The notes below the pieces were generated by a model. That model was not told the origin of the DNA and ran no database searches. It saw only the letters and a program-made list of their open reading frames with translations. A stretch of 64,000 nt of DNA from Thermodesulfobacteriota bacterium. GTDB taxonomy: Bacteria > Desulfobacterota > Desulfarculia > JACQYL01. Positions 32,357 to 34,167 of the stretch are shown in pieces. Within the stretch, counting starts at the first letter, position 1; each line of letters starts with the position of its first letter. Made by a program: the position numbers and the translations under genes. The stretch is taken from contig CAXXLZ010000001.1 in assembly GCA_963675595.2 (NCBI GenBank), positions 320,001-384,000 of the forward strand. The letters run 5' to 3'.

Positions 32357-32410
32357 AGCATCCGGGGAAACCCTTTGGAAAGGGTTTCCCCGGACCCCTT
32401 GTATATTTAG

Positions 32411-32602
32411 CATGCCATCTTTCATACTTAATGGAAGACGGCATGACCCGCAAAGTTGGTCACGGACATGACAGGCCGCCGGACCCCCAGGAGAAATGGA
32501 CTCCGTTTGGAAGCTTGGGCCGTCATGTCCTTCCTCGAGATAACCCGTACAGTTGCCCGGCCTTTTAAGGCCGCATCTGCAAGGTTGGGTACGAGAGGAG
32601 TT
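32411..32602 (+). ncRNA. Candidate bridge RNA (5' stem-loop, target-binding loop, donor-binding loop)
   Basis: Loops contain GGACCCC and GGAAG (target arms) and ACAGTTGC and GCAAG (donor arms). Confidence 0.8.
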
Positions 32603-32605
32603 ATC

Positions 32606-33574
32606 ATGGGCGAGATCACCTGTTTCGTGGGAATCGATGTCTCCAAGGACCGGCTTGAAATCGCCGTCGTTCCCGGCGAGGAAGCCTGGTCGATGACCAA
32701 CCATGAAACCGACTTTGATGCTTTAATCAACCATCTCAAAAATCTTCCTTCCTCCATGATCGTCTTGGAGGCTACCGGTGGGCTTGAGACTCCGGTGGCG
32801 AGCGCCTTGGCCGGAGCCGGGCTGAATGTGACCGTGGTCAATGCACGACATGTTCGTAACTTTGCCAAGGCCAAAGGAATACTGGCAAAAACCGATCGCA
32901 TAGACGCCACAGTCCTGGCCCATTTCGCCCAGGCTGTCCGGCCGCAAATTCGGCCCTTGAAGGACGATCAGCTGCGAGCGTTGACTGCTCTGGCCGATCG
33001 GCGTGGACAAATCATAACCATGTTGACCGCCGAGAAGAACCGTCTTCGAAGCGCTCACCCCTCTCTGCACAAAGGCATCCAGGCCCATATCTCGTGGCTC
33101 CAAAAGCGCCTTGAGGACTTGGACCGGGAACTCCGCAAGGCGATTCGGGCATCTCCCATTTGGCGGGAAAAAGACGCTCTGTTTCAAAGTGTGCCCGGAG
33201 TGGGACACGTTCTCTCCTCGACTCTGCTGACCCGCTTACCCGAACTCGGGGCATTGAACCGTAAGCAGATCACCGCCCTGGTGGGAGTCGCTCCCCTGAA
33301 TCGTGACAGCGGGAAGATGCGAGGGAAACGCTCCATTTGGGGAGGCCGTGCCCAGATTCGGGCCGTATTGCACATGGCCGCCTTGTCCGCCACCCGTTCA
33401 AACCCGGTAATCAAAGCCTTCTACCAACGGCTTACTAAAGCTGGAAAAGCGCACAAAGTGGCTATGACTGCCTGTATGCGTAAGCTTCTGACCATACTGA
33501 ACAGCATGGTCAAAACCAATACTCATTGGCGCGTCCAACAGCCTGAAATCGGTGTCAAAGACACATTAAGTTGA
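32606..33574 (+). CDS. IS110-family DEDD recombinase
   Basis: Four amino-acid differences from copy 1. Confidence 0.95.
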
Positions 33575-33713
33575 CCGGTTTATGTATCACATCGGTTAAC
33601 CGATGCTGCCGTGGTCTGCTGTGGCGCGGTGCTTGCGCGCGGCAGCCCCACGCGTGCCGCGCCTAGCAAGCGCCGTGTTACAGCTTCATAGGAATCAGTG
33701 ACAAACAACTCAG

Positions 33714-33719
33714 TTGACA
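33714..33719 (+). promoter_or_regulatory. -35 box TTGACA that pairs with TATATT (32402-32407) on IS circularisation
   Basis: 17-bp spacing across the rejoined CT core. Confidence 0.75.
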
Positions 33720-34167
33720 AAGAACACAGTTGCTTCCCAAACTGTTTGAGCGGGTTGCTCGCTTGCGCTTCGCAACCGGGATCAGGGGCTCTCCATGCAT
33801 AAGTTTCCGGGTGCGCAATCATCGGATTATTGATCAAACCGATGCACCTTACGGATGTCCGGAGCCCGCATCAAGGGAGTCCGGGGTGATGTCGTTCCCC
33901 CGCGGAATCGATAGAGAAGTCCCCCCCCGTGAAGGATTGCCAATATCTTTGAGTGTGGCCGCACCGCCTGCGGCGAAGCGGCGGGGCGAAAGTCGGTCGA
34001 GACAAGGAATTCCCGGACCTTGGACCTTCACGCGGGACGGACACCGTAGTGCCTGCCCCTATTAACGTCGGGATTCTATCGTTCCCGAATTCATTTTGCC
34101 GAGAGCCTCTCCGCCGAAGGCGGTGAGGCGTTTTCGGAAAGCTTTGGGAAGGTTTCCCCGGATGTGT

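What the first reader, a model, noticed from the sequence alone, without database searches (positions are those of the whole stretch)
32398..33734. IS621-like bridge recombinase with fully readable target and donor guides
Seen: the junctions reconstruct target CCGGACCC-CT-TCCCAAA and donor ACAGTTG-CT-TGTAT. The ~200-nt left end folds as a 5' hairpin (32411-32445), then stem GGACATGAC/GTCATGTCC enclosing loop CCGGACCCC (left target arm, 32479-87), hairpin GGAG/CTCC and loop TTTGGAAG (reverse complement CTTCC matches core plus right arm). A second loop holds ACAGTTGC (left donor arm, 32549-56), hairpin CGGCCTT/AAGGCCG and GCAAG (complement of CTTG). Circularisation joins TTGACA and TATATT with a 17-bp spacer. 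Established: this is the IS110 bridge-RNA architecture, and as I recall the IS621 donor ACAGTATCTTGTAT is very similar. Inference: an orthologue with a different target specificity, possibly a programmable recombinase.
Basis: partly seen in the sequence, partly recalled or inferred. Interest (0 to 1): 0.85.

Follow-up and report, generated by a model that had tools for sequence, protein, structure and literature searches.

The report
IS110 insertion sequence with bridge RNA
This is an intact, multi-copy jumping gene of the IS110 family whose own small RNA spells out both the genomic site it inserts into and its own ends; it is a clean but ordinary new member of the RNA-guided "bridge recombinase" class described in 2024.

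Summary
Window 32398-33734 is a 1,337-bp IS110-group element, one of seven intact copies (99-100% identical) in this genome. It encodes a 322-aa DEDD/Ser recombinase that is homologous over its full length to IS621 and ISCro4.

Its 208-bp left end carries a bridge RNA: a 5' hairpin, a target-binding stem-loop and a donor-binding stem-loop. A covariance model built from 65 orthologues, without this window, hits it end to end (99.9 bits, E 6e-21).

The four guide segments match the element's flanks and ends:
- Four copies sit at CCGGACCC-CT-TCC(A/C/T)AA in a REP-like repeat, matching the guides at 15-16 of 16 positions. No unoccupied site of that quality remains in the genome.
- Three copies sit at weaker sites (11-12 of 16) that keep CCC-CT-T(C/T)C.A.

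In about 58 orthologues with different guides, the loops track each element's own flanks. The RE-LE junction would form TTGACA-17-TATATT, and the linear copy has no sigma-70-like promoter.

The interest is modest: thousands of such elements were already predicted, and NCBI has a family model named "IS110 family RNA-guided transposase". RNA expression, circle formation and reprogrammability remain untested.

The parts
32361..32394 (+). REP-like stem-loop just 5' of the insertion point. Its 3' arm overlaps the first bases of the left target arm. It also looks like the terminator hairpin of the upstream M90 peptidase gene.
   Evidence: DNA fold -18.5 kcal/mol, z -5.4 to -6.4. The same hairpin flanks 4 of 7 copies. 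It belongs to a repeat family with at least 36 copies.
32390..32397 (+). Left target arm, CCGGACCC (host DNA).
   Evidence: Identical to bridge-RNA loop bases 32479-86. Conserved in 4 of 7 copies; the other 3 copies match at 4-5 of 8 positions.
32398..32399 (+). Left copy of the CT core dinucleotide.
   Evidence: CT lies at both junctions of all 7 copies.
32398..32605 (+). Left end (208 bp, non-coding). It encodes the bridge RNA.
   Evidence: Identical in all 7 copies. It begins CTTGTAT, as 68 of the 69 aligned unique left ends do; 2 start CGTGTAT and 1 TTTGTAT.
32402..32407 (+). -10 box TATATT of the junction promoter.
   Evidence: The aligned hexamer in orthologues is mostly TATCTT (39 of 66 rows).
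32412..32444 (+). 5' stem-loop of the bridge RNA.
   Evidence: Minimum-energy and centroid folds. This region varies in sequence and length among orthologues.
32461..32598 (+). Bridge RNA core: target-binding loop plus donor-binding loop.
   Evidence: Model R1, built from 65 orthologues without this window: 99.9 bits, E 6.4e-21, model positions 1-137 of 137. In the orthologues 96.6% of pair cells are paired and 18 of 25 pairs show compensatory changes.
32479..32487 (+). Left target guide, CCGGACCCC. It has the same sequence as the top strand of the left arm plus the first core base, so it would pair with the bottom strand.
32506..32513 (+). Right target guide, TTTGGAAG. It is the complement of CT + TCCAAA.
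   Evidence: Matches at 7-8 of 8 positions in all 7 copies. Orthologues show pairing to the core plus 5 right-flank bases.
32549..32556 (+). Left donor guide, ACAGTTGC. It equals the last 7 bases of the right end plus the first core base.
   Evidence: AACAGTTG is conserved across orthologues, and the same 7-mer followed by CT ends each orthologue's right end (found in 62 of 66 rows).
32575..32583 (+). Right donor guide, AT(CT)GCAAG. It is a discontiguous complement of CT-TG-T-AT at the left end.
   Evidence: CAAG is invariant in 66 of 66 rows. The scheme is the one described for IS621.
32593..32600 (+). Ribosome-binding site, GAGAGGAG.
   Evidence: It lies 5 nt upstream of the ATG.
32606..33574 (+). 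Recombinase gene: 322 aa, with a RuvC-like DEDD domain, a coiled coil and a Tnp domain carrying the catalytic Ser.
   Evidence: PF01548 (3e-25) and PF02371 (6e-18). NF033542 'IS110 family RNA-guided transposase', 228 bits against a cut-off of 140. IS621 chain 8wt6 E 1.3e-37 and ISCro4 chain 9t56 E 2.5e-36. D11, E55, D97, D100 and S235 are invariant in 24 homologues.
33575..33734 (+). Right end (160 bp).
   Evidence: It is longer than in orthologues, whose whole elements measure 1,109-1,267 bp.
33714..33719 (+). -35 box TTGACA of the junction promoter.
   Evidence: TTGAC[AT] sits at the same 17-bp spacing in 42 of 62 elements with a defined right end, this one included.
33726..33734 (+). Left donor arm ACAGTTG plus the right copy of the CT core.
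33735..33740 (+). Right target arm, TCCCAA (host DNA).
   Evidence: Matches the guide complement TCCAAA at 5 of 6 positions.
1383..2719 (-). Second full copy of the same element in this window, in another copy of the same repeat.
   Evidence: R1 hit at 2519-2656 (-), 99.9 bits.

Best explanation
This is an autonomous insertion sequence of the IS110 group, a bridge recombinase system.

Proposed cycle:
1. The element excises as a circle that carries a single CT core.
2. Joining the right end to the left end creates a sigma-70 promoter, TTGACA-17-TATATT.
3. That promoter drives a bridge RNA of about 180 nt, from roughly 32414 to roughly 32595, and the downstream recombinase gene.
4. The recombinase, with DEDD and Ser catalytic residues, binds the RNA.
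5. The first internal loop pairs with both strands of the target: CCGGACCC(C) with the bottom strand on the left, and TTTGGAAG with the top strand across the core and TCCAA(A) on the right.
6. The second internal loop pairs in the same way with the circle junction, ACAGTTG-CT-TGTAT.
7. Strand exchange at the CT core inserts the element, leaving a CT at each junction.

The preferred site lies just 3' of the hairpin of a REP-like intergenic repeat.

Shown here by sequence analysis: the protein family and catalytic residues; the conserved, covarying RNA fold; the guide-to-flank and guide-to-end matches in 7 copies and in about 58 orthologues; and the junction promoter.

Inferred from published IS621 work, not observed here: transcription, RNA binding, circle formation and RNA-dependent recombination.
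For: Protein:
- PF01548 and PF02371.
- NF033542 'IS110 family RNA-guided transposase', 228 bits against a cut-off of 140.
- Full-length phmmer matches to solved IS621 (E 1.3e-37, residues 7-305) and ISCro4 (E 2.5e-36).
- D11, E55, D97, D100 and S235 align with the IS621 residues reported as catalytic, D11/E60/D102/D105/S241 (passages of PMC11208158).

Copies:
- 7 of 7 copies are full length (1,337 bp) with intact reading frames.
- Left and right ends are identical in all seven.

RNA:
- In 65 orthologues, 96.6% of pair cells are paired, against 85.7% in shuffles and 36-51% when partners are slid.
- 18 of 25 pairs carry changes on both sides; 0 of 500 shuffles reach any of the five measures.
- Model R1, built without this window, hits it at 99.9 bits, E 6.4e-21, over its full length.
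- R1 hits exactly the 7 copies in the genome; 150 of 1,820 candidates were scored.

Targets:
- Sites match the guide-derived 16-mer at 16, 15, 15, 15, 12, 12 and 11 of 16 positions.
- The genome holds 0 uninterrupted CT-core sites with 15 or 16 matches and 22 with 14.
- Of 33 unoccupied copies of the repeat, 27 lack CT at the core position and the 6 with CT have left-arm or right-arm mismatches.

Family-level guide tracking:
- Across 59 distinct guide pairs, the longest run shared between the left guide loop and its own left flank averages 5.9, against 3.4 for 3,414 non-self pairs.
- For the right guide the figures are 6.2 (n = 54) against 2.9 (3,111 pairs).
- Right-flank positions +1 to +5 match the element's own guide in 88-96% of 52 orthologues, against 24-34% for non-self pairs.

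Promoter:
- TTGACA-17-TATATT forms only across the junction.
- The -35 box is conserved in 42 of 62 elements.
- No sigma-70-like site was found in the linear copy, 32250-33900.
Against: - No RNA-seq run holds the element, so transcription and RNA ends are unverified.
- No contig joining the right end to the left end (a circle junction) appeared in the four runs laid. Contigs drop rare forms, so this says little.
- Three of seven insertions are at sites with only 11-12 of 16 matches, while 691 uninterrupted CT-core sites with 12-14 matches, and a further 2,735 with 11, remain unused. Simple match counting therefore does not fully predict site choice.
- The left target guide has C where the core has T at its second position, and its loop is one nucleotide longer than in most orthologues. 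The exact pairing register is therefore inferred.
- Rfam 15 gave no hit. As far as that scan shows, it has no model that matches this RNA.
Confidence: 0.9

Rival explanations
1. RNA guide plus a structural gate. The bridge RNA gives base-pair specificity, but efficient insertion also needs the DNA stem-loop just 5' of the target. This is the 'sequence-structure dual match' reported for ISPpu10 of Pseudomonas putida. It refines the main explanation rather than replacing it.
For: - 4 of 7 copies lie 3-6 nt 3' of a strong hairpin (z -4.2 to -6.4), and a fifth lies next to a moderate one (z -2.4).
- The ISPpu10 preprint reports such a gate (abstract and section 7 read).
- 22 CT-core sites with 14 of 16 matches are unoccupied while sites with 11-12 are occupied, so something other than match count matters.
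Against: - 2 of 7 copies have no significant hairpin (z +0.7 and 0.0).
- Among 51 orthologue insertions, left flanks fold no better than right flanks: mean z -0.31 against -0.40, z <= -2 in 5 against 9, Wilcoxon p 0.92.
- The hairpin may simply be part of the repeat that happens to hold the best guide match.
Confidence: 0.15
2. Protein-directed site specificity. The recombinase itself recognises the repeat, and the left-end structure is only a 5' UTR or regulatory element. The loop-to-flank matches are then a by-product of the element copying target-like sequence.
For: IS110-family elements were known to target REP sequences long before the RNA was found (reference list of PMC11208160). No RNA data exist for this element.
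Against: - Guides differ among about 58 orthologues, and each tracks its own flanks on both sides of the core, while the protein and RNA scaffold stay conserved.
- The three copies outside the repeat still keep the core-proximal guide matches.
- For IS621 the RNA was shown to be necessary for recombination in vitro (PMC11208160 section 7).
Confidence: 0.04
3. An inactive relic. The copies are old insertions that no longer move.
For: No circle junction or occupied/empty polymorphism could be demonstrated. Two solo right-end remnants exist.
Against: - Six copies differ at no more than 1 position in 1,337 bp.
- All 7 reading frames are intact and keep the catalytic residues.
- The one divergent copy differs at 15 positions, giving 10 synonymous and 4 non-synonymous codon changes, which suggests selection for function.
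- Contigs from other runs show the element joined to flanks that were not found in this genome.
Confidence: 0.03

Closest known systems
IS621 (Escherichia coli) bridge recombinase and bridge RNA
   Same: - Domain order and catalytic D-E-D-D plus Ser.
- A left-end RNA with a 5' stem-loop, a target-binding loop and a donor-binding loop.
- Left guides have the sequence of the top strand; right guides are complementary to it.
- CT core, and a discontiguous right donor guide.
- A junction promoter.
- Donor arms identical at 12 of 14 positions.
   Different: - A distant protein relative: phmmer E 1e-37; identity was not computed.
- Different target: CCGGACCC-CT-TCCAA here, against the wild-type IS621 target ATCAGGCCTAC quoted in a legend of PMC11208160.
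- The right target guide pairs with the core plus 5-6 bases here, against 4 nt in IS621.
- The left target guide matches only the first core base.
- The right end is longer (160 bp).
ISCro4 bridge recombinase (solved structure 9t56)
   Same: Full-length homology, E 2.5e-36.
   Different: A different orthologue. Its RNA and target were not compared here.
ISPpu10 and ISPpu9 (Pseudomonas putida), REP-targeting IS110 elements
   Same: Multi-copy elements inserted into a repeated extragenic palindromic element, just 3' of a stem-loop, with CT duplicated at the junctions.
   Different: - Different host lineage and repeat family.
- Here 3 of 7 copies lie outside the repeat.
- Orthologues of this clade show no general 5' hairpin.
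- No downstream small-RNA gene like Ssr9 was looked for.
IS1111 group (bridge RNA, also called seekRNA, in the right end)
   Same: The same DEDD recombinase family and the same RNA-guided principle (PMC11208160 section 12 passages).
   Different: IS1111 elements carry the RNA in a long right end and have long subterminal inverted repeats. Here the RNA is in the left end, and the left end is longer than the right (208 against 160 bp).

Membership tests
IS110 family (DEDD recombinase insertion sequences) | A single gene with an N-terminal DEDD_Tnp_IS110 (RuvC-like) domain and a C-terminal Transposase_20 (Tnp) domain. | tested here: met
   PF01548 at 89 bits against a cut-off of 29. PF02371 at 65 bits against 21.3. 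NF033542 at 228 bits against 140.
IS110 family (DEDD recombinase insertion sequences) | Catalytic D, E, D, D and Ser residues present. | tested here: met
   D11, E55, D97, D100 and S235 are invariant in 24 aligned homologues. They align with the IS621 positions reported as essential.
IS110 family (DEDD recombinase insertion sequences) | No long terminal inverted repeats, and a short core dinucleotide present at both junctions. | tested here: met
   CT lies at both junctions of 7 of 7 copies. The ends, CTTGTAT... and ...ACAGTTGCT, are not inverted repeats.
IS110 family (DEDD recombinase insertion sequences) | A circular intermediate whose right-end/left-end junction forms a promoter. | tested here: inconclusive
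   The promoter halves are present and conserved, and the linear copy has no promoter. The circle itself was not seen in contigs of 4 runs, which cannot show rare forms.
IS110 group (as opposed to the IS1111 group) | Left end longer than right end, with the bridge RNA encoded in the left end. | tested here: met
   Left end 208 bp, right end 160 bp. The R1 hit lies in the left end.
Bridge RNA (IS621 type) | [quoted passage not shown] | tested here: met
Bridge RNA (IS621 type) | First internal loop: the 5' side equals the top strand of the left target, and the 3' side is complementary to the core plus the right target. | tested here: met
   7 copies match at 8/8, 8/8, 8/8, 8/8, 5/8, 5/8 and 4/8 on the left, and at 5-6 of 6 on the right. 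One deviation: the second core base is not matched by the left guide.
Bridge RNA (IS621 type) | The second internal loop matches the element's own ends (the donor) in the same way. | tested here: met
   ACAGTTG+C equals the tip of the right end. AT..GCAAG is the complement of CT-TG-T-AT at the tip of the left end. Both are conserved across 66 rows.
Bridge RNA (IS621 type) | Guides covary with the flanks across orthologues. | tested here: met
   Self against non-self controls.
Bridge RNA (IS621 type) | The RNA is transcribed, binds the recombinase and is required for recombination; changing the guides changes the target. | not testable with these tools
   No RNA run holds the element. This needs bench assays.

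The most novel reading that the evidence does not exclude
It now inserts at degenerate sites through a core-proximal half-match (CCC-CT-TCC), helped by a C-run in an unusually long left guide that allows slipped pairing. One off-repeat site matches 10 of 10 loop bases in a register shifted by one. The REP hairpin may add a structural preference. If so, this genome would be a natural record of how bridge-RNA off-targeting starts once cognate sites run out.
Probability: 0.15. Interest if true: 0.45.

Novelty: new member of a known kind. Interest (0 to 1): 0.3.

Why it matters
It adds one well-resolved natural example to the bridge recombinase class. All four guides can be read, and seven insertion sites give a small natural on-target and off-target series.

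It also defines a compact clade whose RNA scaffold is highly conserved while its guides are diverse: elements of about 1.1-1.3 kb with recombinases of about 311-322 aa, found in assemblies labelled Dehalococcoidia, Nitrospirota, Gemmatimonadales and other groups (record titles). Such orthologues are candidates when screening for new programmable recombinases.

For annotating this genome, it explains seven repeats and their preference for one repeat variant. It does not change what is known about the mechanism.

Tried and rejected
- **Rfam scan.** 31800-34400 at E <= 1 gave no hit.
- **Sequencing runs.** No RNA holder is listed. Contigs of X1, X5, X6 and X9 laid on 32250-33900 gave no right-end-to-left-end joint. 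The joints that skip about 1,335-1,342 bases carry other letters at the core (an A, or GGCCCC) or continue as TTTCC. They are therefore unoccupied paralogous repeat copies, not the empty form of this locus.
- **Search for a new flank.** One new right flank seen in run X9 was searched for in this genome, to obtain an occupied/empty pair. It was not found.
- **First regular-expression attempt** to extract the guides failed. It was replaced by extraction from alignment columns.
- **Wrong-side folds.** One search folded the wrong side for the five minus-strand copies, because those loci are not re-oriented. It was redone correctly.
- **Hairpin hypothesis across the clade.** The idea that a 5' target hairpin is general in this clade found no support.
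- **Relatives.** The element was searched in 40 related genomes. No full copy was found in those searched. One genome gave a 97-bp match to part of the right end, and two gave weak short matches.
- **Not attempted.** Structure prediction and complex prediction were not run, because the solved IS621 and ISCro4 homologues already answer the fold question. Handshake guides were not analysed.
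Full report
**What is there**

Window 32398-33734 (+) is a 1,337-bp element bounded by a CT dinucleotide at each end. It lies between two convergent host genes:
- an M90 metallopeptidase gene (31520-32356, +);
- a LysE-type translocator gene (34168-34812, -).

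The element consists of three parts:
- a 208-bp non-coding left end (32398-32605);
- one gene (ATG 32606 to stop 33574, 322 aa, preceded by GAGAGGAG);
- a 160-bp right end (33575-33734).

The longest open frame starts at a TTG at 32456. Alignment with 23 homologues puts the true N-terminus at the ATG.

**The protein**

- It carries the two Pfam domains of IS110-family recombinases: PF01548 (E 3e-25) and PF02371 (E 6e-18).
- It scores 228 bits, against a cut-off of 140, on NCBI's equivalog model NF033542, named 'IS110 family RNA-guided transposase'.
- Against the Protein Data Bank it matches two sequences, both over nearly its whole length: the IS621 recombinase (8wt6, E 1.3e-37, residues 7-305) and the ISCro4 recombinase (9t56, E 2.5e-36).
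- In that alignment, D11, E55, D97, D100 and S235 stand opposite the IS621 residues that Hiraizumi et al. report as the DEDD motif and the catalytic serine, D11, E60, D102, D105 and S241. I read passages of PMC11208158. The PDB chain numbering is offset by two.
- All five residues are invariant in an alignment of 24 homologues.
- The family is very large. The homology search hit its ceiling of 8,000 scored candidates, all of them significant. Most of the best hits are 59-65% identical, and the nearest three are 83, 75 and 68% identical.

**Copies and flanks**

The genome (6.79 Mb, 3 contigs) holds seven full-length copies at 99-100% identity. One of them also lies in this window, at 1383-2719 (-). 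All seven reading frames are intact, and the left and right ends are identical in all seven.

The flanks are as follows:

| Copies | Site |
|---|---|
| four | CCGGACCC-CT-TCC(C/C/T/A)AA, just 3' of a strong hairpin of a REP-like intergenic repeat |
| one | CGGACCCC-CT-TCCGAA |
| one | TCGATCCC-CT-TCCAAG |
| one | CGCACCCC-CT-TTCAAA |

No copy sits at a site unrelated to the motif.

**The RNA**

The left end folds well below shuffled controls (-80.7 kcal/mol, z -3.9, 0 of 200 shuffles).

To test this independently of a single fold, I fetched 80 related loci from species-representative genomes. Their proteins are 51-61% identical to this one.

How the rows were selected:
1. 79 sequences, the window included, had at least 200 nt upstream of the start codon.
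2. 74 of these carried TGTAT at the expected distance, giving 69 unique left ends.
3. I dropped three. L020 and L085 have an aberrant first loop region, and L051 has a long insertion.
4. That left 65 orthologues plus the window.

What the alignment shows:
- The scaffold is strongly conserved, with 22 invariant columns that include CAAG and the CCCG/GGG stem of the second loop.
- The two sides of the first internal loop are hypervariable. This is the pattern Durrant et al. describe for the target-binding and donor-binding loops (PMC11208160 section 6).

For a hand-curated structure of 25 pairs in four helices, counted on the 65 orthologues alone:
- 96.6% of cells are paired, against 85.7% in column shuffles and 36-51% when partners are slid by 1-3 columns;
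- 18 pairs show changes on both sides, in 170 cells against 40 expected;
- none of 500 shuffles reaches any of the five measures.

A covariance model built from those 65 sequences, without the window, finds the left end of both copies in the window over its full length. The score is 99.9 bits, E 6.4e-21, with one further weak hit at E 0.14. In the whole genome it finds exactly the seven copies; 150 of 1,820 first-look candidates were scored. Rfam 15 gave no match.

**Guides**

| Guide | Coordinates | Relation to DNA |
|---|---|---|
| Left target guide CCGGACCCC | 32479-87 | Same as the top strand of the left flank plus the first core base |
| Right target guide TTTGGAAG | 32506-13 | Complement of CT + TCCAAA |
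| Left donor guide ACAGTTGC | 32549-56 | Same as the last seven bases of the right end plus the first core base |
| Right donor guide AT(CT)GCAAG | 32575-83 | Discontiguous complement of CT-TG-T-AT at the left end |

The right donor guide is nine RNA bases read against seven donor bases. That is the arrangement reported for IS621 (PMC11208160 section 7; PMC11208158 passage).

- The right target guide reads well beyond CTTCC.
- The left target loop is one nucleotide longer, with C rather than T opposite the second core position.

In IS621 the left donor guide pairs with only the first core base, so a partial core match on a left guide has a precedent.

**How specific is the targeting**

I scored every uninterrupted CT-core 16-mer of the genome against the 16-mer implied by the guides.

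| Matches of 16 | Uninterrupted sites in the genome |
|---|---|
| 16 | 0 |
| 15 | 0 |
| 14 | 22 |
| 13 | 90 |
| 12 | 579 |
| 11 | 2,735 |

The seven occupied sites score 16, 15, 15, 15, 12, 12 and 11. All four best sites are therefore occupied.

A BLAST census with the right part of the repeat found 36 copies of the repeat family:
- 3 are occupied; the fourth occupied copy is too diverged to be caught;
- 33 are empty;
- at the core position the empty copies read TT (17), CA (7), CT (6), CC (2) and TC (1);
- the six empty CT copies each have 1-3 left-arm mismatches, and one of them also has two right-arm mismatches.

One caveat applies. After recombination the CT at the junctions could in principle derive from the donor. 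I therefore cannot exclude that some occupied sites originally carried another core.

The three low-scoring insertions show that match count alone does not predict site choice:
- They share CCC-CT-T(C/T)C.A.
- One of them (TCCGGACCCC-CT) matches 10 of 10 loop bases if the pairing is shifted by one.

**Do the guides track targets in relatives**

For each orthologue I took the loop columns and its own flanks. The right end was located as the element's own 7-base left donor arm followed by CT. It was found once in 62 of 66 rows, giving element sizes of 1,109-1,337 bp.

Among 59 distinct guide pairs:

| Comparison | Self, mean longest shared run | Non-self, mean | Non-self pairs reaching the self median |
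|---|---|---|---|
| Left loop against left flank | 5.9 (n = 59) | 3.4 (3,414 pairs) | 2.9% |
| Right guide complement against right flank | 6.2 (n = 54) | 2.9 (3,111 pairs) | 0.35% |

Position by position, with the window left out:
- Right-flank bases +1 to +5 agree with the element's own guide in 88-96% of 52 orthologues, against 24-34% for non-self pairs. Agreement drops to background at +6.
- On the left, bases -1 to -5 agree in 71-93% of 58 orthologues. The non-self control is 78% at -1 and 36-41% at -2 to -5.

The architecture inferred for this element is therefore a property of its whole clade.

**Promoter**

- TTGACA (33714-19) and TATATT (32402-07) would be separated by 17 bp across a junction with a single CT.
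- TTGAC[AT] sits at exactly that spacing in 42 of 62 elements with a defined right end.
- A consensus scan of the linear copy and its flanks (32250-33900) finds no sigma-70-like site.
- This matches the published model, in which excision reconstitutes the promoter that drives the bridge RNA (PMC11208160 passages).
- A 2026 paper reports weak bridge-RNA expression from integrated IS621 copies (abstract of PMC13626964).

**Mechanism**

The best-supported mechanism is that of IS621:
1. A circular form expresses the RNA and the recombinase.
2. The RNA's two loops pair with both strands of the target and of the circle junction.
3. The DEDD/Ser active sites exchange strands at the CT core.

What I show is sequence-level evidence: homology, conserved residues, the covarying fold, guide-to-DNA matches with controls, and the promoter halves. 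Transcription, binding, circle formation and RNA dependence are inferred from published work on IS621 (sections 6, 7 and passages of PMC11208160; passages of PMC11208158).

**Rivals**

- **Structural gate.** A second determinant in the form of the target hairpin, as reported for ISPpu10 (abstract and section 7 of the preprint), is possible for this element. Four of seven copies have a strong hairpin and one a moderate hairpin. Two copies lack it. Across 51 orthologue insertions, left flanks fold no better than right flanks.
- **Protein-only recognition.** This is hard to square with guides that differ among orthologues and track their own flanks.
- **Dead relic.** This is hard to square with seven intact, near-identical copies. 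It also does not fit a divergent copy whose 15 differences give 10 synonymous and 4 non-synonymous codon changes.

**Comparison and novelty**

It works like IS621, and it meets every membership feature that could be tested here for the IS110 family, for the IS110 group and for the IS621-type bridge RNA. The experimental features could not be tested.

It is not new in kind:
- Durrant et al. predicted bridge RNAs in thousands of IS110 elements, using 5,511 target pairs and 2,201 donor pairs.
- They found a predicted bridge RNA in 85.7% of ISfinder IS110s.
- NCBI already names the protein family RNA-guided.

I rate it a new member of a known kind, with interest 0.3.

**Evidence from other samples**

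- Near-identical sequence is held by 18 coded runs from 7 studies, among them marine sediment and microbial mat metagenomes. None is on record as RNA.
- In run X6 the element's contig has about six times the word depth of its flanks and carries the majority allele of the six other copies.
- Contigs of X5 and X9 join the element to other flanks. The one X9 flank I searched for is absent from this genome, which suggests different insertion sites in other strains. These are single low-depth contigs.

Noticed in passing
window 32713-33349: This copy differs from the other six at 15 positions. All 15 are transitions and all lie inside the reading frame, giving 10 synonymous and 4 non-synonymous codon changes. 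The six others are identical to one another apart from one position, and the ends of all seven are identical. This looks like a second allele or lineage of the same element, or gene conversion from one.
   Followed up: partly
G000:C2:1729092-1729169 (-) and G000:C2:734818-734890 (+) (loci L008, L009): Two solo right-end remnants of 73-78 bp, 85-92% identical to the tip of the right end and ending in ACAGTTGCT. Each lies 3' of a hairpin. Each is followed by the same repeat that forms the right flank of copy C2:255974. They may be deletion derivatives or aborted recombination products.
   Followed up: partly
window 33553-33649; L091 about 1501-1594: The last codons of the recombinase gene plus about 75 bp of the right end are 81% identical to an intergenic stretch, with no element nearby, in a genome of the same family. 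The right end here is 160 bp, while whole orthologous elements are 70-230 bp shorter. This segment, and the C-terminal tail of the protein, were probably acquired.
   Followed up: partly
window 23092-23520 (+): This is another IS110-family DEDD domain, from a different element type that has 8 copies in the genome. A third type has 5 copies. Bridge-RNA model R1 does not hit it, so its RNA, if it has one, is of another type or lies at the other end.
   Followed up: no
G000 genome-wide; e.g. window 32361-32394 and 33735-33790: A REP-like repeat family with at least 36 copies. It consists of a hairpin (GGGGAAACC...GGTTTCCCC), a variable CCGGACCC-(CT/TT/CA)-TCCCAAAC segment, and a second conserved hairpin-forming part (GGGTTGCTCGC...GCGTCGCAACC).
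   Followed up: partly
window 32510: One contig of a microbial-mat metagenome run (X5, depth 3.4) carries G>A inside the right target guide. That change would alter the predicted right arm from TCC to TTC. Copy C2:255974 in this genome sits at a TTC site. It is a single low-depth contig and may be an error.
   Followed up: no
L020 135-246 and L085 128-240: In two Dehalococcoidia loci, a second full bridge-RNA match (about 75 bits) lies about 1.2 kb upstream of the orthologue whose own first loop region is aberrant. This suggests nested or tandem elements.
   Followed up: no
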